Assembly (NCBI GenBank): GCA_017549765.1
Contig: JAFYNM010000008.1
Location: 74,733-138,732 of the forward strand
Length of the DNA: 64,000 bases
Reading direction: 5' to 3'
DNA from: Bacteroidales bacterium
Lineage (GTDB): Bacteria; Bacteroidota; Bacteroidia; Bacteroidales; WCHB1-69
Shown here: positions 1-15,002 of the stretch, piece by piece
Numbering within the stretch: position 1 is the stretch's first letter
Layout: the number at the start of each line of letters is the position of its first letter
Made by a program: the position numbers and the translations under genes
The notes under the pieces: generated by a model
Told to the model about the DNA's origin: nothing
The model's input: the letters and a program-made list of their open reading frames with translations, nothing else
Database searches by the model: none

Positions 1-1718
1 ACCAGAATGTGGACCAAAACGGCAAATACATCTTGAAAGGTATCATCAATACGGTGCGGTGGAATGAACCTGCCCCTGACGGCTCCGGCGGCAAGAAACT
101 TGACCCCGAAGTGCTGACCAACCTCATCAACTACCTGAGCGCAGTGGATTTGAGCAACAAGAATGTGACCGTGGATGTGCTGGGTGATGCATATGAATAC
201 CTGATCAAGCGGTTTGCCGACGAAAACAAGGGCGGCACCATGGCGGGACAGTTCTACACGCCGCAAGAGGTGGTGGACATCATTGTGCGCTACCTAAAAC
301 CGCAGAAAGGCGAGACGGTGTATGATCCCACTTGCGGTTCCGGCGGTTTCCTGCTGAATGCCGCTAAGTACGCCCGCGCCAGCTATGACACACAAAAGAG
401 CATCCGACTTTTCGGACAGGAATTGGTGTGGAACACGTGGGCCATCTGCAACATCAACATGATTCTGCATGGCTTGGATGCCCGCATTGAGCAGGGCGAC
501 ACCATCCGCGACCCGAAATTCAAGGACGAAGAGAATGAGCTGGAACTGCGCACCTTCGACAAGGTTATGGCCAATTTCCCTTTTTCGATGGAGAACTGGG
601 CACAGAACGGAGAACCAAAAAAGGACAAAAATGGCAACACAAAACCGAAGAAGGACGGCACCCCGCAGATTGAATACAAAAAGGAGTTTACGGATGCCTA
701 TAACCGTTTGATTTACGGCATTCCACCATATAGCAACGGCGACTTTGCCTTCTTGCAGCATATCATCGCTTCGTTGGATGAGAAAGGCAAGGCCGGTGTG
801 GTGTGTCCGCAGGGTGTTTTGTTCCGCGGACAGCCCGAAAAGACCGAAGAGGAAGACGGCCAGAACCGCAAGGCTGATGTGGAATACCTGATTCGACGCG
901 GTTTCCTGCAAGGAGTGGACTTCTCGCAGCATACCAACATCATTGATGCCATTGTGGTGCTGCCGGGCAACCTATTTTACGGTACGACCATCCCCGGTGC
1001 CATCATCTTTTTCGACAAAAACAAGCCCGAGGAGCGCAAAGACAAGGTGCTGATGGTGTATGCCGCCAAGAAGGGCTGGTGCCGCGAAGAGGCCAACATG
1101 AGCGTGTTGGAACCACAGGATGTGCTGCGCATCTCCACCATTTTGGAAAGTTGGGGCGATGTGGAAAAGGCCAAGCATTGGATCAAACTCCAGAAAAACC
1201 GGTTGCATATCCGCATTGAAGAGGAGTTGGATTTCCAGCTTTCCGAAATTGAAAACGATACCAAAGAAGAGATTGCCAAGCAAACCGATAAGTTGGCCAA
1301 AGCCCAATTGGCGGTACAAAACAAAGTGGATAATAACAAGAAGCCAACTGCCGGAGAGTTGAAGGCCGTGGAGGCTGCGCAGAAAGCGTTGGACAAATTG
1401 CTGGCCGACAAGACGGCACGAGAGAACGCCGCCAACGAAAAAGCCGTGAAGCAGCGCAAAGCCATTGCCGACGTGGAGGCGGAACTTTTGCAGATGCTGG
1501 CTGACCCCGAACTGCGCAAGCGTTATTTCTCCATCGTGGATATGGGCGAGATTGAGGAGAACGAGTTCAACCTCAACATCCCGCGCTATGTGGATACCTT
1601 CGAGCCGGAAGAGCAGATTGATTTGAAGCAAGCCATTGCCGATTTCAAGGCGGCGATGCAAGCGGAAACAACGGTGGAGAAGGAGTTGGAGAAACTGTTG
1701 GAAACAATTGATAATTAA
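1..1718 (+). CDS. hsdM: Type I restriction-modification methyltransferase subunit (5' end outside window)
   Basis: DVLGDAYEYLI, GQFYTP, SAM-binding YDPTCGSGGFL, motif IV variant ANFPF, C-terminal FNLNIPRYVDT. The frame is open back to the window edge. Confidence 0.95.
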   Translation, partial: QNVDQNGKYILKGIINTVRWNEPAPDGSGGKKLDPEVLTNLINYLSAVDLSNKNVTVDVLGDAYEYLIKRFADENKGGTMAGQFYTPQEVVDIIVRYLKPQKGETVYDPTCGSGGFLLNAAKYARASYDTQKSIRLFGQELVWNTWAICNINMILHGLDARIEQGDTIRDPKFKDEENELELRTFDKVMANFPFSMENWAQNGEPKKDKNGNTKPKKDGTPQIEYKKEFTDAYNRLIYGIPPYSNGDFAFLQHIIASLDEKGKAGVVCPQGVLFRGQPEKTEEEDGQNRKADVEYLIRRGFLQGVDFSQHTNIIDAIVVLPGNLFYGTTIPGAIIFFDKNKPEERKDKVLMVYAAKKGWCREEANMSVLEPQDVLRISTILESWGDVEKAKHWIKLQKNRLHIRIEEELDFQLSEIENDTKEEIAKQTDKLAKAQLAVQNKVDNNKKPTAGELKAVEAAQKALDKLLADKTARENAANEKAVKQRKAIADVEAELLQMLADPELRKRYFSIVDMGEIEENEFNLNIPRYVDTFEPEEQIDLKQAIADFKAAMQAETTVEKELEKLLETIDN

Positions 1719-1730
1719 TAGTTTACGAGA

Positions 1731-3467
1731 ATGGGAGAATTCGACATACATACATTGCAACATCAGCCCGAAGGGCAGCAGTTCGACCGCAAGAGCTTTC
1801 GGATTGATGCAAAATCATTGGCGGTGATACTGGTTGCTTTTGCCAATGCCGATGGTGGCGATGTGGTGATAGGCATAGAGGATGACGGCCGTATTACGGG
1901 CATCAACGGGAACGACGACCATCTGAATGAGTTGCTCAGAGCCCCTTTCGATTTCTGTGTCCCCTCGGTAAACGTTGAGGTGCATTTCATTGATTGCACT
2001 GATGCAAATGGAACTCCCAATCGGGTTTTAGTGATGCATGTTGAACCCAGCATGCAGGTGCATGCCAACCAAGCCGACGACGCTTTCTATCGGGTTGGCG
2101 ACAAGTCGAAAAAACTGAATTTTGAGATGCGTATGCAGTTGTTCTATGCCAAAGGCGGCCGCTATTACGAAGACGAGCCTGTTTATGGAGCAACTATGGA
2201 CGACTTAGACCTTGACTATGTTAAGGAGTTTTGCGACAAAATAGGTTATGCCAAAGATGCCGAGACTTACCTGCGTACCAACAAAGGCTATGTTACCACT
2301 GCGAACGGAGCGGATAAAGTTTCCGGGGCGGCCATCTTGTTGTTCGGCAAGGACCCGCAGAAGTTTTTCCAACGTGCACGAATCCGCATTGTACGTTACG
2401 ACGGCGATGAGGAACGTTTTGGACGGGAAATGAACGTGGTGAAAGATGTGTCGTTTGAGGGGCGCATTGTGGAGATGACGCAAAAGGCCATTGATTTTGT
2501 GGACACACAGATAAAGGAATACAGCTTTTTGGGCGAGGACGCCCGATTTGTCACCATTCCCCAGTATCCGCCTTTCTGCTGGACAGAGCTCATCGTGAAT
2601 GCCGTGGCTCACCGCGACTACAGCATATTGGGCACGGACATCATAGTGAAAATTTTCGACCACCATTATGTGGTGGAAAGTCCGGGCATATTGCCGGGCA
2701 TGGTGCGCATCGACAATATACGGCAGATGCACTTCTCGCGCAATCCGAAAATTGTCCAGTTTATGCAGCAGTACAAGCTGGTGAAGGAGTTCGGCGAAGG
2801 CGTTGACCGTATGTTCCGCGAAATGGCCGAAGCCGGCAACCCTGCGCCGGAGTATAAGCAGATAGATTTTATGCTGAAGGTGAAACTCACCTCGGCAATG
2901 AGGGAAGAAAAAGATACCGCGAAAAAAAGTAACATGAAAAGTAACATGATACTCGAAAAAAGCAGCGTCAAAAACGAGCATCTTATCATAGAAACCATCA
3001 AGGCAAACCCTTCGGCTCCGATTCCTATTTTTCAGAAAATCACAGGATTGTCAAGAAGTGGTATTTGGAAGATTCTCAATAGGTTGCGCGAAAATGAAGT
3101 TGTCCGCCGCATCGGTTCCGACAGAGATGGTTACTGGGAAATTGTGGAGAAAAGCGAAATGGAAGGCGCATTGAAAAGCAAGAAAAAAAATAAAAATGGC
3201 ATTGCAAATGACACTGTAAATAGCACTGAAAATGGCACTGAAAATGCCCTAGAAAATGACACTGTAAACGACCGAATGGATAATGAAAAAAAGTTGTTGT
3301 TTGCAATTATAGAGCATCCCAACTATACATACGAGCAATATGCGGAACTGATTCATATTTCCAGAAGGACAATTGCAAGGATGTTGAAGAATTTGCATGA
3401 AAACGGCATCATCCGCCGCGTGGGTCCCGATAAGGGTGGCCATTGGGAAGTAATTGGGAATGAATAA
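1731..3467 (+). CDS. AlbA_2 (Schlafen-like) / RecG C-terminal-like (HATPase_c_4) protein with two C-terminal wHTH domains
   Basis: EGQQFDRKS and AFANADGG..IGIEDDG (AlbA_2). ELIVNAVAHRDY, SRNP and GEGV motifs. Two RRxG..xGxWE wHTH endings. Confidence 0.85.
   Translation: MGEFDIHTLQHQPEGQQFDRKSFRIDAKSLAVILVAFANADGGDVVIGIEDDGRITGINGNDDHLNELLRAPFDFCVPSVNVEVHFIDCTDANGTPNRVLVMHVEPSMQVHANQADDAFYRVGDKSKKLNFEMRMQLFYAKGGRYYEDEPVYGATMDDLDLDYVKEFCDKIGYAKDAETYLRTNKGYVTTANGADKVSGAAILLFGKDPQKFFQRARIRIVRYDGDEERFGREMNVVKDVSFEGRIVEMTQKAIDFVDTQIKEYSFLGEDARFVTIPQYPPFCWTELIVNAVAHRDYSILGTDIIVKIFDHHYVVESPGILPGMVRIDNIRQMHFSRNPKIVQFMQQYKLVKEFGEGVDRMFREMAEAGNPAPEYKQIDFMLKVKLTSAMREEKDTAKKSNMKSNMILEKSSVKNEHLIIETIKANPSAPIPIFQKITGLSRSGIWKILNRLRENEVVRRIGSDRDGYWEIVEKSEMEGALKSKKKNKNGIANDTVNSTENGTENALENDTVNDRMDNEKKLLFAIIEHPNYTYEQYAELIHISRRTIARMLKNLHENGIIRRVGPDKGGHWEVIGNE
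3195..3266 (+). repeat. Degenerate 12-bp in-frame tandem repeat (six units) in the linker between the wHTH domains
   Basis: aatggcattgca/aatgacactgta/aatagcactgaa/aatggcactgaa/aatgccctagaa/aatgacactgta. Confidence 0.8.
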
Positions 3468-3493
3468 TGTACAATTGACAATGAACAATGATG
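3452..3493 (+). repeat. Heptamer tandem array (AATnnnn x6) at the albA/hsdS junction
   Basis: aattggg aatgaat aatgtac aattgac aatgaac aatgatg. Confidence 0.7.
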
Positions 3494-4726
3494 GAGAAAA
3501 TAGGCAAATACATAACCAACTATATAAAGGGTAAAACGCCGAAAGTTTTGTTCGACAGCGAATTGTTGGACACCTTGCCGTATTTGTCCCCTGACTATTT
3601 AAGAGGTGTTTCCAACCCAGAATTGTATGCAAAGCAAGATGCAAAAACTATTGTGATAGATGACGGTGAGGTGATTGTGTTGTGGGATGGCAGTAATGCT
3701 GGTGAAATATTGATTTCCAAGAAGGGGATTTTAGCATCAACAATGACGATGCTAAAATTTGATAAAACAGAGATAAACAAAGCGTATTTCGGTTATTCTT
3801 TCCAGAACTTGGAGTATATTTTGAAAGCAAAAACGGCAGGTTCTGGCATTCCTCACGCAGACAAAGGCGTTATTAGCAAATTGGAATTTTACAAGCCCTC
3901 TCTTCCCGAACAGACCGCCATTGCCAATATTCTCTCGAAGGTGGACGAGGCGATAGCGGCGGTGCAGGGCAGCATTGCCGCCGCCGAGCGGCTGAAGAAG
4001 AGCCTGATGCAGAACCTCCTCACCGGCCGCATGAAACCCGACGGCACACTCCGCAAAGATGATGAGTTCTATATGGACGAGAAGTTCGGAAAAGTGCCGA
4101 AGGGGTGGGAAGTGAAAAGATTAAAAGACATTTGCTTAAATTCTGGTGATTATGGAGCCAATGCTTCAGCAATTGACTATGATGAAACCAAGCCACGTTT
4201 TATCAGAATTACAGATATTGACGATTTTGGTCAACTTTTGGAGGATGGGAAAGCTGGAATGGCTGGCGACAACTATTCGAAATACCTGTTGGAAGAAGAT
4301 GATTTTCTTTTCGCAAGAACAGGTGATACGGTTGGAAAGTCTCTTTTGTACAAAAAAGAAATGGGACTTGCAGTTTATGCAGGCTATTTAATAAAATTCT
4401 CGTTTGATAAGAGCAAGGTTTTGCCAGAGTATTTTGATTTGATTGCAAAATCGGAGTTCTTTGAAGCATTTAAAATAGCGATGAAACGTGTTGGTGCAAA
4501 ACCGAATATAAATTCGAGAGAATACTGTTCTTTTAGGTTCCTGTTGCCATCAGATACTGAAGAACAAAAAGAGATTTATAGAAAATTTGCTAATATAGAT
4601 AAATCACAAAAGTCGAAACAACAAAAAATCACCACCCTTGAGCGGTTGAAGAAATCGCTGATGCAGAATCTGCTGACGGGGAGGGTGAGAGTAAAAGAAA
4701 AAACATTTAAATATTATAACATATGA
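3488..4726 (+). CDS. hsdS: Type I RM specificity subunit
   Basis: Two variable TRDs, with the conserved repeat ERLKKSLMQNLLTGR twice, PSLPEQTAIA and VPKGWEVKRL. Confidence 0.95.
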   Translation: MMEKIGKYITNYIKGKTPKVLFDSELLDTLPYLSPDYLRGVSNPELYAKQDAKTIVIDDGEVIVLWDGSNAGEILISKKGILASTMTMLKFDKTEINKAYFGYSFQNLEYILKAKTAGSGIPHADKGVISKLEFYKPSLPEQTAIANILSKVDEAIAAVQGSIAAAERLKKSLMQNLLTGRMKPDGTLRKDDEFYMDEKFGKVPKGWEVKRLKDICLNSGDYGANASAIDYDETKPRFIRITDIDDFGQLLEDGKAGMAGDNYSKYLLEEDDFLFARTGDTVGKSLLYKKEMGLAVYAGYLIKFSFDKSKVLPEYFDLIAKSEFFEAFKIAMKRVGAKPNINSREYCSFRFLLPSDTEEQKEIYRKFANIDKSQKSKQQKITTLERLKKSLMQNLLTGRVRVKEKTFKYYNI

Positions 4727-5787
4727 CAGATAGTGCAGCGAATAATTTGAAAGGAATAACCTTAAAAACGGGTTGGACAGTTATTGAAAAAATCACTAAG
4801 GATGATAATTCTACAGGTTCCGTATTTTCAATTTGTTATAAGGTAAAGAAAAACGATAACATATGCTTTCTAAAAGCTTTTAATTTCACACCTTTTTTCC
4901 AATTATCTGAACAAAGTGGGCAAAACCGTTCTATTACTGATATCATTGGCGATATGATTAATGCTTATAAATATGAAAGAGATCTTTCTAAACACTGTAA
5001 AATGGGACATGTGACCAAGGTCGCTTTCGTCATTGATTCTGGAGAAGAAATTATTCCAAACTTTTCTATCAATATTGTTCCATATCTGATATTTGAGCTA
5101 GCTGACGGTGATGTCAGGCACAACCTTCAATATTCAGAAAGATTAGACCTTGCATGGAAATTGAATTCATTACGTGAAGTTGCTACTGGGCTCAAACAAT
5201 TACATAACGTAAATGTTTCGCATCAAGATTTGAAGCCATCAAATATTTTACTTTTTGACAAGGAGTCAAAAATTGGAGATCTAGGACGGTCTATGTGTAA
5301 AGATATTGAAAACCAATACAATAATCAAATATATTCTGGAGATTGGAATTATGCACCGCCAGAATTAATGTATGGTTATTATGAACAAGATTGGGAAAAA
5401 CGAGCTTACGCTACCGATTGTTATCTATTGGGGAGTATGGTTGTTTTTTATTTTGCAGGAATCAGCATGTCTGCATTATTGCTAAAACATATTCCAAACG
5501 AATTTAGATGGGAGAATTATAGAGGTTCTTTTGATGAAGTAAAACCCTATTTGATCGCTGCCTTCGGTGATGCTATGACTGAATTTTCTAATTGTATTGA
5601 GTTGGAGTATTTTCGAAATGAGCTAAAACAAATAGTAGAATATCTTTGTTTCCCATTTCCGGAAAAAAGAGGACATCCCAAGAATATTGCAAGTGTTGGA
5701 AATAGTTATAGTCTTGAGCGATTTATTACAAAATTTGAATTATTAAGAAGAAAAGCAGAATTAAATATAAAAACATGGCAGCAATAA
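4723..5787 (+). CDS. Hanks-type Ser/Thr protein kinase (cytoplasmic, non-RD)
   Basis: FLKA (catalytic Lys), HQDLKPSN catalytic loop, KIGDLG, YAPPE, TDCYLLG. ATGA overlap with the hsdS stop codon. Confidence 0.92.
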   Translation: MTDSAANNLKGITLKTGWTVIEKITKDDNSTGSVFSICYKVKKNDNICFLKAFNFTPFFQLSEQSGQNRSITDIIGDMINAYKYERDLSKHCKMGHVTKVAFVIDSGEEIIPNFSINIVPYLIFELADGDVRHNLQYSERLDLAWKLNSLREVATGLKQLHNVNVSHQDLKPSNILLFDKESKIGDLGRSMCKDIENQYNNQIYSGDWNYAPPELMYGYYEQDWEKRAYATDCYLLGSMVVFYFAGISMSALLLKHIPNEFRWENYRGSFDEVKPYLIAAFGDAMTEFSNCIELEYFRNELKQIVEYLCFPFPEKRGHPKNIASVGNSYSLERFITKFELLRRKAELNIKTWQQ

Positions 5788-7322
5788 TTGAAGAAAAAGA
5801 ACGCAGGGTTATTCCCAATTGGCGTTCATTTGAGATCACAGCTTCTTTAGGAGAATTAAATGCAAATAAATTAAAAAGCAAGGATTTTTCTAAATTATCT
5901 ATTGATTCATACATACGAGATTTTCGGAACAATTCCAGTGTTCCATTTGCTGCCGATTTGATAAGTGCTGCTTTAGTAAATGGATTCGATGACAATAACA
6001 ATGTTAAAGATGCAGCACAATTCTTGTTAAACAATAAACAAAAAATAACCACGTCGCAAGAAGAATTGGCATATAGAATACTTAATGGTCCAATTGGTTC
6101 ACAGGATGTAATTGAGGGTATTACAATTAAACAATTAAACGATTGTATAACTAATCAAGACTTTATAAAAAGAATTAGAGTGTTAAAACAGCATCTTATC
6201 GAGTTCCCATATAATCCAATTGCATGGGTTGAGCTGTCTCGGTGTTATTCTATTCTTGGACAAGAGGGAAAAGCTATGCAGACCATGAAATATGCCGTGC
6301 AATTGTCTCCTGATAATAGATTCGTAATTAGAAGTGCCACGCGATTATTTACTCATTATGACGAACTTGATTTAGCACAATATGTGTTGCGTCATAGCGG
6401 AATGTTACGAAAAGATCCATGGTTGCTTTCTGCAGAAATATCTGTAAATACACTGAAAGGGAAAGTTTCAAATTTACTAAAACGAGGAATTGAAATCATC
6501 GATTCAAACAACTATTCTCCTTTTTCAACAACCGAATTAGCTGCATCTATTGGTACTGTTCATTTGTTGGCAGGAGATAGAAAGAAAAGCAGAAAATTGT
6601 TTACCCAATCACTTGTTTCCCCTAATGATAATTCAATTGCCCAAGTTGAATGGGTCTTGAATAGCAAAGACAAGAGTTTGTTTGATAAAGGCGCAATTAA
6701 CATCAAAACGCAGTATAGTTATGAAGCTATGGCAATATATAATTTCTATAATAATAATCTAATAGATGCTTTGAATAATGCATGCCAATGGTTTTGTGAC
6801 ATGCCGTTTTCAAAAAGGCCAGTTATGATGGGAAGTTGTGTTGCTGATTTACTAAACAATAAAAATCTTGCAATAACTTTTTTAAAAAAAGGCCTAATGT
6901 CCAATTCCAATGATTGTCAATTATTGAACAATATTGCATACTACTATGCTTTGGAAAACAATCTTGACGAAGCAAATAAATACATAGAACGAATTGATCA
7001 CAAACTAGTTGGAGAGGTAGATGGTATTTGCATAACGGCAACAAAAGGACTGATCAAATTCCGTGAAAAAGATTATGAATGTGGTCGTGAATTATATCTC
7101 CGTGCAATTGATAGCACCACCATGTTAAGAAATAAAGAACTTAACTATAAAGCGATTTTGAATTATACGAGAGAAGAAATTATGGCTAAGTCGGATCATA
7201 TAGAACCTGCTATGAATTTAATAAGTGAAATGAAAGATATAGATAATATGAGTATTGAGATCAAAAAAATTCATTCCGAAGTTGTTGAGTTATATCAAAA
7301 GAATAAAGAAAGTAATATTTGA
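5775..7322 (+). CDS. TPR-repeat protein coupled to the kinase
   Basis: TPR-like units (PYNPIAWVELSRCYSILGQEGKAMQTMKYAVQLSPDN; QLLNNIAYYYALENNLDEA). 13-nt overlap with the kinase. AT-rich. Confidence 0.8.
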   Translation: MAAIIEEKERRVIPNWRSFEITASLGELNANKLKSKDFSKLSIDSYIRDFRNNSSVPFAADLISAALVNGFDDNNNVKDAAQFLLNNKQKITTSQEELAYRILNGPIGSQDVIEGITIKQLNDCITNQDFIKRIRVLKQHLIEFPYNPIAWVELSRCYSILGQEGKAMQTMKYAVQLSPDNRFVIRSATRLFTHYDELDLAQYVLRHSGMLRKDPWLLSAEISVNTLKGKVSNLLKRGIEIIDSNNYSPFSTTELAASIGTVHLLAGDRKKSRKLFTQSLVSPNDNSIAQVEWVLNSKDKSLFDKGAINIKTQYSYEAMAIYNFYNNNLIDALNNACQWFCDMPFSKRPVMMGSCVADLLNNKNLAITFLKKGLMSNSNDCQLLNNIAYYYALENNLDEANKYIERIDHKLVGEVDGICITATKGLIKFREKDYECGRELYLRAIDSTTMLRNKELNYKAILNYTREEIMAKSDHIEPAMNLISEMKDIDNMSIEIKKIHSEVVELYQKNKESNI

Positions 7323-7337
7323 TAATTGTCAATTGAA

Positions 7338-7475
7338 ATGAAAACTTCCATCCGCTTCTATAACGACCGCGAGGTGTCTTCGGTGCCTTCGACAAGCTCA
7401 GGCACCGTAATAGAAAAACAAACTTCCACACCGAGAAGACCGGTGGTTGAGCCTGTCGAAACCACCGCAGAATAA
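7338..7475 (+). pseudogene. 45-codon remnant: N-terminus of a Bacteroidota Fic/BRO-like protein fused to REP-derived sequence
   Basis: Translates MKTSIRFYNDREV, then SSVPSTSSGTV...PVVEPVETTAE*. The first 13 aa resemble the start of Fic-family proteins (recalled, not searched). Confidence 0.5.
7381..7467. repeat. Inverted pair of REP-like palindromes (REPIN-like doublet)
   Basis: CGGTGCC-TTCGACAAGCTCA-GGCACCG (7381-7407). The reverse complement of 7441-7467 is CGGTGGT-TTCGACAGGCTCA-ACCACCG. Confidence 0.8.
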
Positions 7476-7476
7476 T

Positions 7477-7511
7477 AATTGTACATTGTACATTGTTAAT
7501 TGTAAATTAAA
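7477..7511 (-). repeat. Heptamer tandem array upstream of hsdR, inverted relative to the 3452-3493 array
   Basis: aattgta cattgta cattgtt aattgta aattaaa. The reverse complement contains aatttac aattaac aatgtac aatgtac. Confidence 0.7.
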
Positions 7512-7516
7512 AAGTT

Positions 7517-10500
7517 ATGTCAAAATTATCCGAAGCGAAATCCGTTGAAACAAAAGTCACCGAATGGCTGTCCCAGATTGGATGGGAATACCGTTCGGTG
7601 GAGGATTTGAAGCAATATAACCGTCTGCAAACTAATGTGGTGATTGAACCGATATTGGTGGAGAAGGTGATGGAGCTTAACGGCATCAGCCAGCAGGCGG
7701 CCAAGTCGGCGGTGGAGACGCTGCTCAACAACTTGCGCAATCCTATTCCCATCGAGGGCAACGAGAAGTTCCTCAACCAATTGTCGGAAGGCGTAACCAT
7801 TACCATCGACCGGAAAGACCGCACTGTCCGTTTCATCGACTTTGAAGATATTTGGCAGAATTCGTTCATCGTCACCAACCAATATGCGGTGCAGCAGGTG
7901 CGGGCAGACATTTGCCTGTTGGTGAATGGTATCCCGTTGGTGCCCATCGAAGCCAAGCAATGCGCACGGCGCGGCACCAACTGGCTCGAAGGTGTGCGTC
8001 AGTTCCAGACCTACGACCGCCGAAGCGACAAGCTGTTCATCAGTCACCTCTTTGGTGTGGCCTGCAACGGACGGCTGAGCAAATACGGCATTCCGGGCGC
8101 ATCGGCATCGTACTTCAACGAGTGGAAGGATTCGATTATCGCCAACAAGTACGACAATCCGCTACTGAAACCCGAAAACGACCTTTGCCGTGTTTACAAA
8201 GACGAGGATGACGGATTGATGCACTTCGATGTGGAACGGCTTCCAAACGGGCAATTGCTGGAGCAGATGAAGTTCGGCATTATTGGCTTGCTACAGCCGG
8301 AGCGGGTGCTTGACATTTTACAACATTTCATCGTATTTGAGCGCGATGATGGCAGGATTATCAAGAAAGTGGCGCGTTACCAGCAGCTTCGGGCCGCCAA
8401 CAAGATTGTAGATAGGGTGGTGCAGTCGGAAAAAGCTCAAGGCGTGATTTGGCACACGCAAGGTTCGGGCAAGTCACTCACCATGCTTTACACTGCCTAT
8501 AAACTCCGTAAGACGGAAGCCCTTGCCGACCCGACCGTTTTCATTGTGGTCGATCGTAAGGATTTGAAAGACCAGATGGGCGATACCTTCTTTGATTGCG
8601 AGTTTCCCAACGCGCGCATCGTGCTGAGCGTGGGCGATTTGAAAAGCATTCTTCGCGACAAACCTGCAGGAGTATTTATTACCACCATACAGAAGTTCAG
8701 AGAGTTAGGCGAAGTCAAAGACGAGCGTGGCAATGTGGTGGTGCTCATTGACGAGGCACACCGCACCGAATATGGCGACTATCAGATGGAACTGCGGGCG
8801 GTGCTGCCCAACGCCAAACGCTTCGCCTTCACGGGAACGCCGATTCCGAAGACTCATCAGGAGTTCGGCACCAAAGACGAAAGTGGCAAAGTGGAGTATT
8901 ATTTGGACAAGTACAGCGTCATTGATGCCATCAGCGATGGGGCTACCAAGCCCATACGCTACACCTTGGGACCATCGCAGTGGTTCTTGGACAAGGAGAA
9001 CCTGAAGAAAGGTTACGAAGAGATTACCGCCGATTTGGAGGAAGATCAGAAACGGTTGGTGGAACAGCGTGTACAGCCGTGGAAAACCCTGATGAAGAAG
9101 CCCGAACGCATCAAGACTTTGGCCGCCGATATTGCCAATGATTTCCGCGAGCGTTTGGAACCGCAGGGCTTCAAGGCGCAGGTAGTGGCCGTTGACAAAG
9201 AGGCTTGCGTGTTGTATTACAATGAATTGTTGAACTATTTCGACCCATCGGAAATCCGTATCATCTTTTCCACGGGGCAATACGAAACAGGCGAGCGTTA
9301 TGATCTCTTTTCACCTTTCTACATTGATGACAAAGAACGCAAACGTCTGATAGACAACTTTAAGAAAAGGATTACGGAAGAGGAAATCGCCAAAGGCAAT
9401 AACTTGAAAATCTTCATTGTCTGCAACATGTTGCTTACGGGCTTCGATGCCCCGATTGAGCAGACCATGTATTTAGACAGTCCGCTGCGTGATCACAACC
9501 TGTTGCAGGCGGTGGCCCGTACCAACCGCCCGTATGATTATGGCGAAGGGGAAATGAAACTTTCAAAGGAATTTGGCCGCATTGTGGATTATGTGGGTGT
9601 GTTTCAAAACTATAAGGAAGCCTTGAACTACGATCCTGCCGACATTGGCGAATTTGAGGATGTGGATGCGCTGTTAAAAGAGTTCCCTAAAGAATTGGAT
9701 AAGGCCTTTGAGCCGTTTGCAGCAATCAAATTGGAAGACAGCTACGAATGCGAGATGGCCATCATCCGCAAGCTGAGCGAGATTGACCACGGTCAGTTTG
9801 AGAACCGTTTCCATGGGGTGGTGCAGTTGTGGGAAGCCATTTCTCCCAATCCGGGTTTGCGCCCATTCCGCAACCAATACCTGTGGTTGGTTACCATCTA
9901 CGAACTGTATTTGGAAGAGTTCCGTCGTGTGAATTTCGATGCGGAGTTTTATGCCGCCCAAACGCGCAAATTGTTGGAAGAGAGCGCCACTTTGCTCAAT
10001 TTCCGTGGCCATCTGCCCGAAATCACCATCGATGCGGATTATCTCACCAAATTGGAGGAAACCAGACTTTCGCCTTCCGACAAGGCCGAGAAAATCATCC
10101 GCGACATCGAGACGATGATTCGCACTAACCAGAATAACAGTGCCATTTACATTGAGTTTCAGGAGCGTTTGGATGCGTTGATTCAGATGAAAAACGCCAA
10201 TGCACTTGAAATCGAAGGACTTCTTAAGAAACTCAGCGAACTTTACACCGAAGTGGATGAGGCGATTGAGATTCCCAAGAAGATGGGTTTTGCCGACAAA
10301 GGGACGTTTGAGATATTCCAGATCATCAAAAACGAACTGTCCGATTTCGACGAGCAGTTGGTGCGTGAGTTTTCCAACGAGCAGGCGCAACGGATACTAT
10401 CCAAGATTTACATTGGTTGGCAGGAGGTACCGCAGGAATACAACCGTTTCAAAGCCGACATGGAACTGTTGGCCGCCAATCCGAAATACGAATCCTTGAA

Positions 10501-10570
10501 TCTCGACTTTGACGGTCCGTTGGGCGATACTTTGATGAAATCCATCCTTCAGAATTTCAGCTTGAACTAA
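7517..10570 (+). CDS. hsdR: Type I restriction endonuclease subunit R
   Basis: Nuclease motif RADICLLVNGIPLVPIEAK. Helicase motifs HTQGSGKS, DEAHR, FTGTP, LLTGFDAP and QAVARTNR. Confidence 0.96.
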   Translation: MSKLSEAKSVETKVTEWLSQIGWEYRSVEDLKQYNRLQTNVVIEPILVEKVMELNGISQQAAKSAVETLLNNLRNPIPIEGNEKFLNQLSEGVTITIDRKDRTVRFIDFEDIWQNSFIVTNQYAVQQVRADICLLVNGIPLVPIEAKQCARRGTNWLEGVRQFQTYDRRSDKLFISHLFGVACNGRLSKYGIPGASASYFNEWKDSIIANKYDNPLLKPENDLCRVYKDEDDGLMHFDVERLPNGQLLEQMKFGIIGLLQPERVLDILQHFIVFERDDGRIIKKVARYQQLRAANKIVDRVVQSEKAQGVIWHTQGSGKSLTMLYTAYKLRKTEALADPTVFIVVDRKDLKDQMGDTFFDCEFPNARIVLSVGDLKSILRDKPAGVFITTIQKFRELGEVKDERGNVVVLIDEAHRTEYGDYQMELRAVLPNAKRFAFTGTPIPKTHQEFGTKDESGKVEYYLDKYSVIDAISDGATKPIRYTLGPSQWFLDKENLKKGYEEITADLEEDQKRLVEQRVQPWKTLMKKPERIKTLAADIANDFRERLEPQGFKAQVVAVDKEACVLYYNELLNYFDPSEIRIIFSTGQYETGERYDLFSPFYIDDKERKRLIDNFKKRITEEEIAKGNNLKIFIVCNMLLTGFDAPIEQTMYLDSPLRDHNLLQAVARTNRPYDYGEGEMKLSKEFGRIVDYVGVFQNYKEALNYDPADIGEFEDVDALLKEFPKELDKAFEPFAAIKLEDSYECEMAIIRKLSEIDHGQFENRFHGVVQLWEAISPNPGLRPFRNQYLWLVTIYELYLEEFRRVNFDAEFYAAQTRKLLEESATLLNFRGHLPEITIDADYLTKLEETRLSPSDKAEKIIRDIETMIRTNQNNSAIYIEFQERLDALIQMKNANALEIEGLLKKLSELYTEVDEAIEIPKKMGFADKGTFEIFQIIKNELSDFDEQLVREFSNEQAQRILSKIYIGWQEVPQEYNRFKADMELLAANPKYESLNLDFDGPLGDTLMKSILQNFSLN

Positions 10571-10571
10571 C

Positions 10572-11225
10572 ATGCTTCCAGATCATTATACCGTTTGTCG
10601 CCGAGAGGTCAAGAATGCCCGTCTGCGTGTCAACGAAGACGGCAGTGTTCGTCTGTTCGTACCTCTTTCTTTCACAGACGAGGACATCGAGAAACTACTT
10701 GAAAGAAAAAAAGGATGGATAGCGTCAAAACAGAAGTTCTTCCAACAGAAATCCAAAATCCAGCTCCGACGCAATGAGCTCCTGCTTTTCGGCAATCGTT
10801 ATGCATATTACTACTCTGCACAATACAAAAACAAAGTGGTAGTCAATCACGAAAGCAGGACCATCCAAGCGCAACGTGACCTGCTGGATTCAGCTGTTCA
10901 GGAAAAATGGCTGAAAAGTGTGGCTAAAAGACATATTACCGAACGAGTTGAAACCTTGTCTGAAGCCTGGCTCTTGCCTTACAACAAACTCTATATCCGG
11001 AGTCAGAAACGGAAATGGGGCAACTGCTCCTCCGAAAAAAACATCTCCTTCAACTGGCGGTTGATTAAAGCACCAACGTTTGTCCTGGATTATGTCATTA
11101 TTCACGAATTGTGTCACACCATCATCATGAAACACAATTCCCATTTCTACACGATGCTTCGTTCTCATTGTCCCGATTGTGAAGCGGCGCAGAAGTGGTT
11201 AGATAGGTTTGGGAATAGTTTGTAA
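10572..11225 (+). CDS. M48/YgjP (DUF45)-family zinc metallopeptidase-like protein
   Basis: KWGNCS, ISFNWRL, DYVIIHELCH...HNSHFY. A common downstream neighbour of hsdR. Confidence 0.9.
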   Translation: MLPDHYTVCRREVKNARLRVNEDGSVRLFVPLSFTDEDIEKLLERKKGWIASKQKFFQQKSKIQLRRNELLLFGNRYAYYYSAQYKNKVVVNHESRTIQAQRDLLDSAVQEKWLKSVAKRHITERVETLSEAWLLPYNKLYIRSQKRKWGNCSSEKNISFNWRLIKAPTFVLDYVIIHELCHTIIMKHNSHFYTMLRSHCPDCEAAQKWLDRFGNSL

Positions 11226-12605: not shown

Positions 12606-13430
12606 TTATTTCTTTCTTCTTTCAATGATATACTGGCTGGAGTTCTTCTTCGGGCGTCTGGTCTTATAACCCTTAGCAGGCATACCGTTACGGGAACGAG
12701 GATGTCCACCGGAAGCACGACCTTCACCACCACCCATCGGGTGATCGACAGGGTTCATGACGACACCACGGTTGCGAGGACGTCTGCCTAACCAGCGGCT
12801 TCTACCGGCCTTACCGGATACTTCGAGGCTGTGGTCAACGTTGGAGACGATGCCGATGGTAGCTTTGCAGGCGCAGAGGATCATACGGGTCTCGCCAGAG
12901 GGCAGTTTGATAACGGCGTAGCGGCCGTCGCGGGACATCAGCTGGGCGTAGGAGCCGGCGCTGCGGGCGATCTTGGCGCCCTGACCAGGTCTCATCTCGA
13001 TATTGTGGATGATGGAGCCGAACGGGATCTCACCGATAGGAAGGCAGTTGCCCAGGTCCGGAGACACGCCGGAGCCGCTTTGGATCACTTGGCCGACCTT
13101 GATGCCGTGAGGAGCCACGATGTAGCGTTTCTCACCGTCTGCATAGAAGACCAAAGCGATACGGGCGGAGCGGTTCGGATCGTATTCGATCGTCTTGACC
13201 GTTGCGGGAACTCCGTCTTTCTCACGTTTGAAATCAATCATTCGGTACATCTTCTTGTGACCGCCTCCGCGGTACCGTACCGTCATCTTACCACTGTTGT
13301 TTCTTCCGCCTGTCTCATGTCTGGGACACAACAAACTCTTTTCCGGTTTGTTGGTGGTAATGTCATCAAATGCGCTGATCACTTTGAAGCGCTGACCCGG
13401 CGTTACTGGTTTGTACTTTTTTAATGCCAT
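12606..13430 (-). CDS. rplB: 50S ribosomal protein L2
   Basis: [25 protein letters not shown]. Confidence 0.99.
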
Positions 13431-13435
13431 TGCTC

Positions 13436-13726
13436 TTAAATGTTACTGTAAAAATCAATTGTTTGTTCTTTGTCCACGAACACATAGGCCTTCTTGAAGT
13501 TGTTCTTCTGACCTGTGATGACGCCAGCTTTAGTGTTTCGGCTCGTGGCTTTTCCGCGCTGGATGAGCGTGTTCACGCGGACTACTTTTACTCCATAAAC
13601 GGCTTCGATTTCCTTTTTGATTTCGGGCTTGGTGGCTGTGCGGGTCACCATGAAACCATAACGGTTGAACTTTTCAGCCGCTTGCGTCATCTTTTCGCTG
13701 ATGATGGGTTTTATTATGATACTCAT
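13436..13726 (-). CDS. rplW: 50S ribosomal protein L23
   Basis: [19 protein letters not shown]. Lies between rplD and rplB. Confidence 0.97.
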
Positions 13727-13752
13727 TGTTGTAATCTTTACGGGTTATTAAA

Positions 13753-14382
13753 TTATTCGCCTAACATTTTGTTCAGCTCGTTCAGACCGCTTTCGCAAAT
13801 GATCAGGTGACCAGCGTTGAGCACGTGGTAGGTGTTCGCGTCCATGGCGCGCATCACGTTGGTGCGTTGCAGGTTGCGGCAGGACAAGAAGATGTTCTTG
13901 TCGTTGTTGGCTGTCAAGAGCAGCGTCTTCTGGCCTTCCAGTTTCAGGTTCTTGAGCATGGCTGCGTAAGCCTTGGTCTTGGGAGCCTCGAAGGAGAAGT
14001 CTTCCACCACGGTGATCTTGCCTTCCTGTTGTTTGTAGGTGAAGGCGGAGAAACGGGCCACTCTTTTCAGTTTCTTGTTCAACTTGAAGGAGTAGTCTCT
14101 CGGGTGAGGACCGAACACGGTGGCACCGCCACGGATGGTCGGGGATTTGATGCTACCGGCACGTGCGCCGCCAGTACCTTTCTGTCTTTTCAGCTTACGG
14201 GTACTACCGGAAACGGTGGAACGCTCCAAAGTGTCGTGCGTGCCTTGTCTCTGATTTGCCAAATATTGTTTCACATCAAGCCAGATGGCGTGATCGTTGG
14301 GTTCCACATTGAAGATCTTGTCATTCAAAGTGACCGTCTTGGCAGTTGCGCTGCCGTCTATATTATAAACTGTTAACTCCAT
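13753..14382 (-). CDS. rplD: 50S ribosomal protein L4
   Basis: [23 protein letters not shown]. Confidence 0.98.
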
Positions 14383-15002
14383 CTCTCAATAATTATATAA
14401 GATCCATTAGCTCCGGGTACAGAACCTTTCACTAAAACTAAATTCTTTTCCTTCACAATCTTCAAAATCTGAAGGTTGATGACTTTAACCTTGGCATTGC
14501 CCATCTGGCCTGCCATGCGCATACCCTTGAATACGCGGGAAGGGTAGGAGGAAGCACCCATGGAACCGGGGGCTCTCAGACGGTTGTGCTGACCGTGCGT
14601 GGCATCGCCGACACCGCCAAATCCATGACGCTTCACAACGCCCTGGAAACCTTTACCCTTGGAGATGCCGCTCACATCGACAAACTCTCCCTCAGAGAAG
14701 ATGGTAACGTCCAACACCTCACCGAAACTTTTCTTGTGACCTTCCTCGAAACGAGTGAACTCGCGGACGATCTTCTTCGGCGTGGTACCGGCCTTGGCGA
14801 AATGACCCTTCAGGGATTTCGTCGTGTTTTTCTCTTTCTTTTCGTCGTAACCCAATTGGATTGCACTGTAACCATCCTTTTCGATGGTCTTGACTTGCGT
14901 GACGACGCAAGGACCAGCCTCTAACACTGTGCACGGCACCATCTTGCCGGAGGCATCGTAGATGCTAGTCATCCCAATTTTCTTTCCTATTAATCCTGAC
15001 AT
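14373..15002 (-). CDS. rplC: 50S ribosomal protein L3
   Basis: [27 protein letters not shown]. Confidence 0.98.

What the first reader, a model, noticed from the sequence alone, without database searches (positions are those of the whole stretch)
4693..7337. Ser/Thr kinase + TPR cassette inserted between hsdS and hsdR: candidate new anti-phage system
Seen in sequence: two strongly AT-rich genes sit inside an otherwise higher-GC type I RM operon. The kinase start overlaps the hsdS stop (ATGA) and the TPR gene overlaps the kinase by 13 nt, which suggests translational coupling. Composition shifts right after the conserved HsdS end (GRVRV). The kinase has intact catalytic motifs (HQDLKPSN, DLG, APPE), an atypical glycine loop (STGSVFS) and no TM or sensor domain. 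Established: the hsdS-hsdR slot hosts back-up defence genes such as PrrC in EcoprrI, and stand-alone kinases such as Stk2 and PD-T4-6 cause abortive infection. Inference: the TPR protein senses a phage protein or RM inhibition, or restrains the kinase, and the kinase then phosphorylates host or RM targets. I know of no described kinase + TPR system in this position.
Basis: partly seen in the sequence, partly recalled or inferred. Interest (0 to 1): 0.82.

Follow-up and report, generated by a model that had tools for sequence, protein, structure and literature searches.

The report
Kinase-TPR defence candidate inside restriction operon
Two tightly coupled genes, a protein kinase and a TPR-repeat partner, sit as a foreign cassette between the specificity and restriction genes of a type I restriction operon; the pair is real and probably an anti-phage module, but it is already catalogued as the untested candidate PDC-M71.

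Summary
A 354-aa Hanks-type kinase (4723-5787) and a 515-aa TPR protein (5775-7322) lie between hsdS and hsdR. They have an ATGA overlap with hsdS, a 13-nt overlap with each other, and 32.8% GC against 51.3% for the genome.

The novelty claim does not hold. Both proteins match PADLOC-DB models PDC-M71A and PDC-M71B over their full length (E 4.9e-153 and 1.7e-177). PDCs are candidates predicted by Payne et al. (bioRxiv 2024) from embedding in BREX, DISARM or type I RM systems. I found no test of PDC-M71 in print.

New here:
- In 73 of 74 evaluable loci from many phyla the TPR gene directly follows the kinase.
- The pair sits right behind a type I S gene in 6 of 64 loci, which needs at least 4 changes on a quick kinase tree.
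- Same-genus genomes carry other defence cargo in the same hsdS-hsdR slot.
- A complex model supports binding of the TPR N-terminus to the kinase substrate-docking face (ipSAE 0.84, best control 0.25).

Most likely this is an autonomous, mobile, TPR-gated kinase abortive-infection module.

The parts
3..1718 (+). hsdM, type I RM methyltransferase. Its 5' end lies 322 nt before the window (start at L102:11679).
   Evidence: Pfam N6_Mtase E 2.1e-77; PADLOC MTase_I E 3.9e-85; ORF start seen.
1731..3467 (+). Schlafen AlbA_2 / HATPase_c_4 / winged-HTH gene embedded between hsdM and hsdS.
   Evidence: Pfam SLFN_AlbA_2 7.8e-20, HATPase_c_4 6.8e-16, HTH_24 2.3e-13. It is 71% identical to the gene at the same place in same-genus genome G024.
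3465..3490 (.). AT-rich heptad repeats just upstream of hsdS, in inverted orientation relative to the copy at 7471-7516.
   Evidence: Sequence. A regex scan of the whole genome finds only these two runs of three or more heptads.
3488..4726 (+). hsdS, type I specificity subunit. Its stop overlaps the kinase start, and it carries a nine-residue tail (EKTFKYYNI) past the ...VRVK end seen in relative G014.
   Evidence: Pfam Methylase_S 1.1e-23; PADLOC Specificity_I 4.2e-47; junction; ends of the relatives' hsdS.
4723..5787 (+). Hanks-type Ser/Thr protein kinase, 354 aa, equal to PADLOC PDC-M71A.
   Evidence: PDLC04780 E 4.9e-153 over residues 3-349 of 354; Pfam Pkinase 58.7 bits against a cut-off of 31.7; catalytic residues invariant in 25 sequences.
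5775..7322 (+). TPR-solenoid partner, 515 aa, equal to PADLOC PDC-M71B. It has an N-terminal helical domain of about 105 aa followed by a TPR superhelix.
   Evidence: PDLC04781 E 1.7e-177 over residues 1-510; AF2 model with pLDDT 88 and pTM 0.78, all-alpha; only generic TPR matches in the PDB.
7338..7376 (+). Remnant of a BroN-Fic gene (PDC-S04): start plus the first 13 codons only.
   Evidence: Window 7319-7376 is 94.8% identical to the start of the full-length BroN-Fic gene of G024. The G024 gene continues where the window diverges.
7377..7470 (.). GC-rich imperfect inverted-repeat (long hairpin) element interrupting the Fic remnant.
   Evidence: RNA fold -39.9 kcal/mol, z -4.46, 0 of 200 shuffles as stable. 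One copy in the own genome. Variants with other loop letters occur in metagenome contigs.
7471..7516 (.). AT-rich heptad-repeat junction motif directly upstream of hsdR.
   Evidence: 92.9% identical to the stretch upstream of the Fic gene in G024. Also present before Fic in G014. Very high contig depth in gut metagenomes with many different flanks.
7517..10570 (+). hsdR, type I restriction subunit.
   Evidence: Pfam SWI2_SNF2 1.1e-62 and HSDR_N 1.4e-30; 88% identical to hsdR of G024.
10572..11225 (+). YgjP-like metallopeptidase gene, last gene of the operon.
   Evidence: Pfam YgjP-like 1.8e-49; conserved after hsdR in G024.

Best explanation
The two genes are an autonomous, horizontally mobile two-gene module. 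It is PADLOC candidate PDC-M71, lodged as cargo in the variable hsdS-hsdR slot of a type I RM operon in an animal-gut bacterium; its closest kinase relatives are from Bacteroidales.

Proposed mechanism:
1. The kinase is a catalytically competent Hanks-type Ser/Thr kinase and acts as the effector.
2. The TPR protein binds it 1:1. Its N-terminal helical domain and first repeats cover the kinase C-lobe substrate-docking face: the alphaD region, the catalytic loop at P172-S173, the P+1 loop at 207-211 and the alphaF-alphaG region. This keeps the kinase gated or aimed.
3. A phage cue captured by the TPR solenoid, or loss of the partner when host expression is shut off, releases or redirects the kinase.
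4. The kinase then phosphorylates host or phage proteins and stops the infection, probably at the cost of the cell (abortive infection).

Shown here: identity with PDC-M71, intact catalytic motifs, near-obligate gene pairing and coupling, mobility, the cargo-slot context, and a predicted interface. Inferred: anti-phage function, the trigger, the targets, and whether binding inhibits or aims the kinase.
For: Identity and catalytic competence
- Full-length PADLOC matches: PDC-M71A E 4.9e-153 and PDC-M71B E 1.7e-177.
- The catalytic residues are invariant in 25 homologues.

Pairing
- The TPR homologue lies directly downstream on the same strand in 73 of 79 fetched loci. Of the 6 without it, 4 end at the contig edge, 1 is only a 33-aa match, and 1 (L078) is a broken kinase with no partner. 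That makes 73 of 74 evaluable.
- In 72 loci, stop-to-start spacing is an overlap in 28, a gap of 0-20 nt in 43, and more than 20 nt in 1.
- Distant homologues at 28-30% identity lie on Deinococcus and Arthrobacter plasmids. They keep the kinase in front with a 4-nt overlap.
- No third gene is conserved: 345 of 444 neighbour proteins are singletons.

Mobility
- The kinase model matched in 5 of 301 genomes of the order, in 5 genera.
- The pair is lower in GC than its flanks in 58 of 61 loci.
- The quick kinase tree mixes phyla.

Defence context
- The same slot in same-genus genomes holds dGTPase, BroN-Fic (PDC-S04) and a Schlafen-like gene in G024. In G014 it holds a TMEM43-like gene, RhuM (PDC-S05) and BroN-Fic.
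- Neighbours within two genes across loci include type I M (6 of 119), S (5 of 119), type IIG, AbiEi, DrmD, BrxH, SoFic, PsyrT and integrases.

Binding
- ipSAE 0.84 (three runs, 0.84-0.85) against a best control of 0.25. The mark was reached by 58 of 80 solved complexes and 2 of 110 mismatched pairs. The runs share at least 90% of contacts and the partner pLDDT is at least 86. The interface is kinase 131-138, 172-173, 207-211 and 242-291 with TPR 19-70, 89-106, 140-150 and 177-184.

Family size
- The TPR family has 2222 representatives at E <= 1e-30. The 150 listed are 316-556 aa, mostly about 500-530 aa.
Against: - No experiment on PDC-M71 was found. The only paper holding the name is a soil-virus survey, and the cold-seep preprint tested other PDCs.
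- Many loci have housekeeping neighbours such as tRNA synthetase, ribonucleotide reductase and transporters. I did not compute a defence-enrichment statistic against a background.
- The kinase is unusually conserved for an immune gene, with 71% mean column identity across phyla. The predicted interface is no more conserved than the rest: 0.72 against 0.73 for the kinase and 0.59 against 0.61 for the TPR.
- The AF2 monomer model of the kinase is poor (pLDDT 66, catalytic segment below 50), so active-site geometry could not be inspected.
- The complex score is a model's confidence, not a measurement. It used my own alignments, so the calibration counts hold only roughly.
- No homologue was found in 50,697 phage records, so nothing links the module to a phage partner.
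Confidence: 0.6

Rival explanations
1. RM guard, on the PrrC model. The pair is functionally tied to the type I enzyme. The TPR solenoid monitors HsdS/HsdM/HsdR, and the kinase fires, or modifies the RM subunits, when a phage anti-restriction protein disables restriction.
For: The window has the same position as prrC, between hsdS and hsdR; Payne et al. describe PrrC as almost exclusively embedded in type I RM. The pair sits immediately after a type I S gene or an M-S fusion in 6 of 64 loci with a called upstream gene, in three different gene orders. That label needs at least 4 changes on the quick kinase tree, and 0 of 500 label shuffles need as few. In the window the hsdS reading frame runs into the cassette and ends in an ATGA overlap. 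A kinase inside a methylation-based defence operon has a precedent in MADS (passages read).
Against: 58 of the 64 loci have no type I S gene in front. Only 1 of the 73 fetched loci (L032) has hsdR behind the pair, as the window does. The window's closest relatives, L002 and L003 at 82% and 80% identity, are not in type I operons; L002 lies next to AbiEi. Other cargo occupies the same slot in same-genus genomes, which points to a permissive slot rather than a specific partnership.
Confidence: 0.12
2. Addiction or toxin-antitoxin module with no direct anti-phage role. A toxic kinase is held by a labile TPR antitoxin, and the pair persists by stabilising the DNA it rides on, here the RM operon.
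For: The genes show a tight two-gene, overlapping architecture. The predicted complex covers the substrate face of the kinase. The pair occurs on plasmids next to a relaxase and IS elements. Its distribution is patchy and mobile.
Against: The gene order is kinase first and partner second, and the partner is large (515 aa), conserved over its full length, with many invariant positions outside the predicted interface. That suggests more than neutralisation. The defence-rich slot and neighbours argue for immunity. This rival is not exclusive of the best explanation.
Confidence: 0.15
3. Ordinary signal-transduction pair. The kinase has a TPR scaffold or adaptor and regulates host physiology, and sits in the RM operon by chance.
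For: Hanks kinases with TPR adaptors are common in bacterial signalling (recalled, not tested). The kinase sequence is highly conserved. Several loci have only housekeeping neighbours.
Against: The kinase model matched in only 5 of 301 genomes of the order. The pair is lower in GC than its flanks in 58 of 61 loci. Its neighbourhoods are never conserved. It is embedded in RM operons repeatedly, and the slot is otherwise filled with defence genes.
Confidence: 0.08

Closest known systems
PADLOC-DB v2 phage defence candidate PDC-M71 (Payne et al., bioRxiv 10.1101/2024.01.29.577857; outline, sections 10 and 17 and passages read)
   Same: Both proteins match its A and B models over their full length, are adjacent on one strand, and are embedded in a type I RM operon. 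Embedding is the criterion by which PDCs were picked.
   Different: Nothing differs in kind. What is added here is the pairing census, the variable-slot comparison and the predicted interface. PDC-M71 is not discussed by name in the main text (0 occurrences of 'PDC-M'). The supplementary tables that define it could not be seen.
Stk2 of Staphylococcus epidermidis (Depardieu et al. [quoted passage not shown]
   Same: [quoted passage not shown] The catalytic core is similar: PD-T4-6 E 6.8e-14 and Stk2 E 1.7e-10.
   Different: The matches cover only residues of about 115-246 of 354. Those systems are single genes, whereas this kinase has a near-obligate TPR partner.
PrrC / EcoprrI (mechanism recalled; the statement that PrrC is almost exclusively embedded in type I RM was read)
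   Same: Cargo between hsdS and hsdR of a type I operon, and the idea of a latent second line of defence.
   Different: PrrC is an ABC-ATPase anticodon nuclease. No such domain is found here. The pair is mostly found outside type I operons.
MADS (8-gene methylation-associated defence system with kinase MAD6; bioRxiv 10.1101/2023.03.30.534895, passages read)
   Same: A protein kinase encoded in one operon with a methylase and a specificity subunit.
   Different: NCBIfam MAD6 scores 36.6 bits against a cut-off of 460. PADLOC mad6 matches only residues 121-216. There is no TPR partner in MADS, and I found no MAD3/MAD4-type genes in the window operon.
TPR-sensor immune proteins such as Avs/STAND (recalled)
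   Same: A TPR solenoid as a plausible receptor for a phage protein.
   Different: There is no NTPase domain, and the effector is a separate kinase. Fold search gives only generic TPR solenoids: LbcA, APC subunits, OGT/SPY, Tom71 and IFIT1, with TM 0.20-0.44.

Membership tests
PADLOC PDC-M71 | Protein A matches the PDC-M71A model over its full length | tested here: met
   PDLC04780 E 4.9e-153, residues 3-349 on profile 6-349 of 352.
PADLOC PDC-M71 | Protein B matches a PDC-M71B model over its full length | tested here: met
   PDLC04781 E 1.7e-177, residues 1-510 on profile 1-512 of 515.
PADLOC PDC-M71 | A and B are adjacent on one strand | tested here: met
   13-nt overlap in the window; 73 of 74 evaluable loci.
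PADLOC PDC-M71 | Demonstrated anti-phage activity | not testable with these tools
   No test found in print (searches; passages).
Hanks-type (eukaryotic-like) Ser/Thr protein kinase | Pfam Pkinase above the gathering score | tested here: met
   58.7 bits against a cut-off of 31.7.
Hanks-type (eukaryotic-like) Ser/Thr protein kinase | Catalytic residues: beta3 Lys, alphaC Glu, HxD..N, DxG, APE | tested here: met
   K51, E85, H167-D169-K171-N174, D186-G188 and P212-P213-E214 are invariant in 25 sequences.
Hanks-type (eukaryotic-like) Ser/Thr protein kinase | Canonical GxGxxG glycine-rich loop | tested here: not met
   The loop reads STGSVFS. Only G32, F35 and S36 are invariant. It is an atypical loop, conserved family-wide.
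Stk2 / PD-T4-6 single-gene kinase defences | Full-length match to the family model | tested here: not met
   Only the kinase core matches: PD-T4-6 residues 115-237, E 6.8e-14; Stk2 residues 124-246, E 1.7e-10.
Stk2 / PD-T4-6 single-gene kinase defences | Stand-alone gene | tested here: not met
   The TPR partner is present in 73 of 74 evaluable loci.
PrrC-type RM-embedded back-up | Located between hsdS and hsdR | tested here: met
   Window and L032.
PrrC-type RM-embedded back-up | Near-exclusive embedding in type I RM | tested here: not met
   6 of 64 loci with a called upstream gene.
PrrC-type RM-embedded back-up | ABC-ATPase plus anticodon-nuclease domains | tested here: not met
   Pfam hits are only kinase and TPR families.
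MADS (MAD6 kinase) | Match to MAD6 at the curated cut-off | tested here: not met
   NF047741 scores 36.6 bits against a cut-off of 460.
Type I restriction-modification (host operon) | HsdM, HsdS and HsdR all present and open | tested here: met
   Pfam and PADLOC matches for all three; all three ORFs are open.

The most novel reading that the evidence does not exclude
The kinase-TPR pair is a guard of the type I restriction enzyme. The TPR solenoid reads the state of the Hsd complex, and the kinase is unleashed when a phage anti-restriction protein disables it. That would make it a kinase-based analogue of PrrC. It would also explain why the pair has landed directly behind hsdS at least four times in different type I gene orders.
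Probability: 0.12. Interest if true: 0.75.

Novelty: already known. Interest (0 to 1): 0.38.

Why it matters
If PDC-M71 protects against phages, it would be a widespread two-component kinase immunity module. The TPR partner family has 2222 clusters at 50% identity with E <= 1e-30, and the pair is found in many phyla. The predicted gate, in which a TPR protein covers the kinase substrate-docking face, is simple and testable.

The locus also gives a clean natural example of an hsdS-hsdR cargo slot that swaps defence genes between species of one genus. That supports embedding as a discovery rule. For the scan itself, the lesson is that this finding rediscovers an existing catalogue entry and is not a new system.

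Tried and rejected
- **E. coli genomes:** no match to window 3400-7700.
- **Phage records:** no TPR homologue at E <= 1e-10.
- **Fused kinase-TPR forms:** the 'longer' search gave one 820-aa kinase plus ribonucleotide-reductase protein, probably a gene-call artefact, and no fusion. This is weak evidence, as the tool itself says.
- **Kinase monomer model:** too poor to use (pLDDT 66), so it was not fold-searched.
- **Fold search of the TPR model:** only generic TPR solenoids.
- **PDB sequence search with the kinase profile:** only remote eukaryotic kinases, best MAPK7 at E 5e-12.
- **NCBIfam:** no specific family for either protein.
- **Interface conservation:** no difference from the rest of either protein.
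- **Reads, RNA run X20:** three short contigs lie inside the TPR gene (6095-6257, 6397-6622, 7055-7205, with 0-2 differences). DNA can be present in such a library, so this is only a weak hint of transcription. Parts without cover say nothing.
- **Reads, DNA run X3:** one contig joins 4694 to 7336, skipping 2641 nt, at depth 20.4 and side 41. The letters between are not known, and a direct join would fuse hsdS in frame to the Fic start. It may therefore be an allele with other cargo and not a clean empty site. I do not build on it.
- **Reads, run X7:** a 2994-nt contig matches only from 4722 onward. Its unlike upstream part may be another context or merely a diverged hsdS allele below the 90% likeness threshold.
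- **Other joints:** those at 3489-3497 to 7474-7485 have sides of 34 nt or less and fall in the repeated junction motif, so I treated them as repeat artefacts.
- **Sigma-70 promoter scan:** not run, because the closest relatives are Bacteroidota, whose promoters differ (recalled).
- **Careful tree search:** did not finish. The tree used is the quick one, with SH-aLRT support only.

Full report
**1. The observation**

The window starts inside a type I RM operon on the + strand. The genes, in order:
- hsdM, 3-1718. Its start lies 322 nt upstream of the window.
- a Schlafen-AlbA_2/HATPase_c_4/wHTH gene, 1731-3467
- hsdS, 3488-4726
- a 354-aa kinase, 4723-5787
- a 515-aa TPR protein, 5775-7322
- a 194-nt gap
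- hsdR, 7517-10570
- a YgjP-like gene, 10572-11225 (domains for all genes)

The kinase motifs are there. They are invariant in 25 homologues, and the glycine-rich loop is atypical across the whole family.

Both genes have 0.328 GC, against 0.513 for the genome.

Small corrections:
- The TPR ORF ends at 7322.
- The AT-rich zone already begins in the 3' half of hsdS (0.359 GC).
- HsdS continues 10 residues beyond GRVRV.

**2. What it is**

PADLOC-DB v2 holds models for exactly this pair. The kinase matches PDC-M71A at E 4.9e-153, and the TPR protein matches PDC-M71B at E 1.7e-177. Both matches are full length.

PDC stands for 'phage defence candidate'. [quoted passage not shown] The main text does not name PDC-M71, and the supplements were closed.

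- The only paper in the library holding 'PDC-M71' is a soil-virus survey.
- A cold-seep preprint tested PDC-S01, S02, S05, S09, S27, S70, M05 and HEC-01, but not M71.
- Other searches for a kinase+TPR defence found nothing relevant.

So the pair is catalogued but, as far as these searches show, untested.

Matches to Stk2, PD-T4-6, mad6 and MkoA cover only the kinase core. NCBIfam MAD6 scores 36.6 bits against a cut-off of 460.

**3. The family**

The kinase has 1851 hits in the 90%-cluster collection. The TPR profile finds 2222 representatives at E <= 1e-30; the 150 listed are 316-556 aa, mostly about 500-530 aa.

*Pairing.* A scan of one genome per species returned 79 loci, mostly Bacteroidota. 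They also include Pseudomonadota, Acidobacteriota, Planctomycetota, Cyanobacteriota, Chloroflexota, Bacillota, Campylobacterota and others.
- The TPR homologue lies directly downstream on the same strand in 73 of the 79.
- Of the six without it, four stop at a contig end, one is only a 33-aa match, and one (L078) is a broken kinase without a partner.
- Spacing in 72 loci is an overlap in 28, a gap of 0-20 nt in 43, and a larger gap in 1.
- Homologues at 28-30% identity on Deinococcus and Arthrobacter plasmids keep the same order with a 4-nt overlap.
- No third gene is conserved: 345 of 444 neighbour proteins are singletons.
- No fused form was found, which is weak evidence.

*Mobility.*
- In the window's order, the kinase model matched in 5 of 301 genomes, each in a different genus, and in 0 of 14 control genomes.
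- The pair is lower in GC than its flanks in 58 of 61 loci.
- A quick kinase tree interleaves phyla.

Together this describes a rare, mobile, self-contained two-gene module.

**4. Context**

*Across loci.* Within two genes of the pair, the commonest Pfam families upstream are N6_Mtase (6 of 119 proteins), HTH_3 (6), Methylase_S (5), HsdM_N (5) and Eco57I (5). Downstream they are Helicase_C and ResIII (6 of 117 each) and phage integrase (3). Housekeeping genes occur too. PADLOC adds AbiEi, type IIG, DrmD, BrxH, SoFic, PsyrT and PDC-S04 in small numbers.

*Link to type I RM.* The pair follows a type I S gene or an M-S fusion directly in L014, L015, L016, L017, L019 and L032. That is 6 of 64 loci with a called upstream gene, and L015 and L016 carry identical kinases. 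Three gene orders occur, and only L032 repeats the window's M-S-kinase-TPR-R order. On the quick tree this label needs at least 4 changes, and none of 500 label shuffles needs as few. The link to hsdS is therefore recurrent but applies to a minority of loci.

*The slot in the same genus.*
- In G024 the operon is the same (hsdR 88% identical). Between hsdS and hsdR it carries a dGTPase, a BroN-Fic gene (PDC-S04) and a second Schlafen-like gene.
- In G014 the slot carries a 701-aa TMEM43-like gene, a RhuM gene (PDC-S05), a 31-codon hsdR 5' fragment and BroN-Fic.
- In the window only the first 13 codons of that BroN-Fic gene remain (7338-7376). They are followed by a 94-nt hairpin element.

The slot is thus a cargo site whose content changes between species of one genus.

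*Wider flanks and metagenomes.* The operon itself lies between housekeeping genes: Sua5 and a decarboxylase upstream, and ribosomal protein genes downstream. Near-identical copies of the cassette occur in contigs of animal-gut metagenomes from several studies. What those contigs do and do not show is set out under Tried and rejected.

**5. Structure**

The TPR protein models well (pLDDT 88, pTM 0.78). It is an all-helical protein with an N-terminal domain of about 105 residues followed by a TPR solenoid. The PDB offers only generic TPR matches.

The family has invariant motifs along its whole length. The N-terminal RRxxPNWRxF, PNDN...AQ..W, W..D.P and LNY.REE are examples.

The complex job gave ipSAE 0.84 in three runs, against a best control of 0.25:
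- The mark was reached by 58 of 80 solved complexes and 2 of 110 mismatched pairs.
- The runs agree in at least 90% of contacts, and the partner pLDDT is at least 86.
- My own alignments were used, so the calibration counts hold only roughly.

The interface puts TPR residues 19-70, 89-106, 140-150 and 177-184 on kinase residues 131-138, 172-173, 207-211 and 242-291. In Hanks kinases these are the alphaD region, the catalytic loop, the P+1 loop and the alphaF-alphaG face, where protein substrates dock. That assignment comes from motif positions and general kinase knowledge; I could not check it in coordinates.

The model supports binding but does not show it. Whether the contact inhibits the kinase, presents a substrate, or makes the partner itself a substrate is open.

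**6. Mechanism and rivals**

| Reading | Confidence |
|---|---|
| Autonomous TPR-gated kinase module acting by abortive infection | 0.6 |
| Guard of the type I enzyme, on the PrrC model | 0.12 |
| Addiction (toxin-antitoxin) module without a defence role | 0.15 |
| Ordinary signalling pair | 0.08 |

The best reading rests on the near-obligate pairing, intact catalysis, mobility, defence-slot context and the predicted interface. The guard reading is favoured by the recurrent placement behind hsdS. It is disfavoured because most loci lack type I genes.

**7. Verdict**

- The defence-candidate interpretation is reasonable and partly supported.
- The claim of a new system is not supported, because this is PDC-M71.

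The remaining interest lies in the fact that nobody appears to have tested it, and that it offers a simple, testable kinase-gating mechanism.

Noticed in passing
window 7338-7376: Start and first 13 codons of a BroN-Fic gene (PADLOC PDC-S04). The gene is full length at the same place in same-genus genomes G024 and G014. Here it is cut off after '...REV'.
   Followed up: yes
window 7377-7470: A 94-nt GC-rich imperfect inverted repeat that folds into one long hairpin (-39.9 kcal/mol, z -4.46). It is single copy in the own genome. Metagenome contigs show variants with other loop letters and raised depth. It may be a small mobile element or a terminator between the cassette and hsdR.
   Followed up: partly
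window 3465-3490 and 7471-7516; also L093:5825-5866 and L095:9375-9402: Runs of AT-rich heptads of the form (A/C)ATTGTN lie before hsdS (inverted) and before hsdR. These are the only two such runs in the 2.45-Mb genome. The same motif precedes the BroN-Fic gene in G024 and G014. In gut metagenomes it has very high contig depth with many different flanks. It could be a shared promoter or leader, or a recombination site for cargo exchange.
   Followed up: partly
window 1731-3467: A Schlafen-AlbA_2/HATPase_c_4/winged-HTH gene is embedded between hsdM and hsdS. It is 71% identical in G024 and absent from that position in G014. Its best PADLOC match is a pAgo-labelled model (E 1.4e-41). G024 carries a second, diverged copy in the hsdS-hsdR slot.
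   Followed up: partly
L095:9246-9338 (G014): A duplicated 31-codon 5' fragment of hsdR lies between the RhuM and BroN-Fic genes. This suggests that cargo was inserted by recombination involving the hsdR start.
   Followed up: no
L093:8415-8560 (G024): A tandem array of roughly 11-nt units lies directly upstream of hsdR, in place of the heptad motif seen in the window.
   Followed up: no
L078:1255-2303: The only evaluable locus without a TPR partner. The kinase there is split into two overlapping frames (degraded), although 9.5 kb of downstream DNA is available.
   Followed up: no
L103 (Deinococcus plasmid NZ_CP026518.1): A distant kinase-TPR pair lies a few genes from a Pycsar effector-family gene and an adenylate/guanylate cyclase gene, among several IS elements.
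   Followed up: no
window 12606-15002 (- strand): Ribosomal protein genes L2, L4 and L3 lie about 1.4 kb downstream of the RM operon. The operon therefore sits between housekeeping genes and not in a large island.
   Followed up: partly
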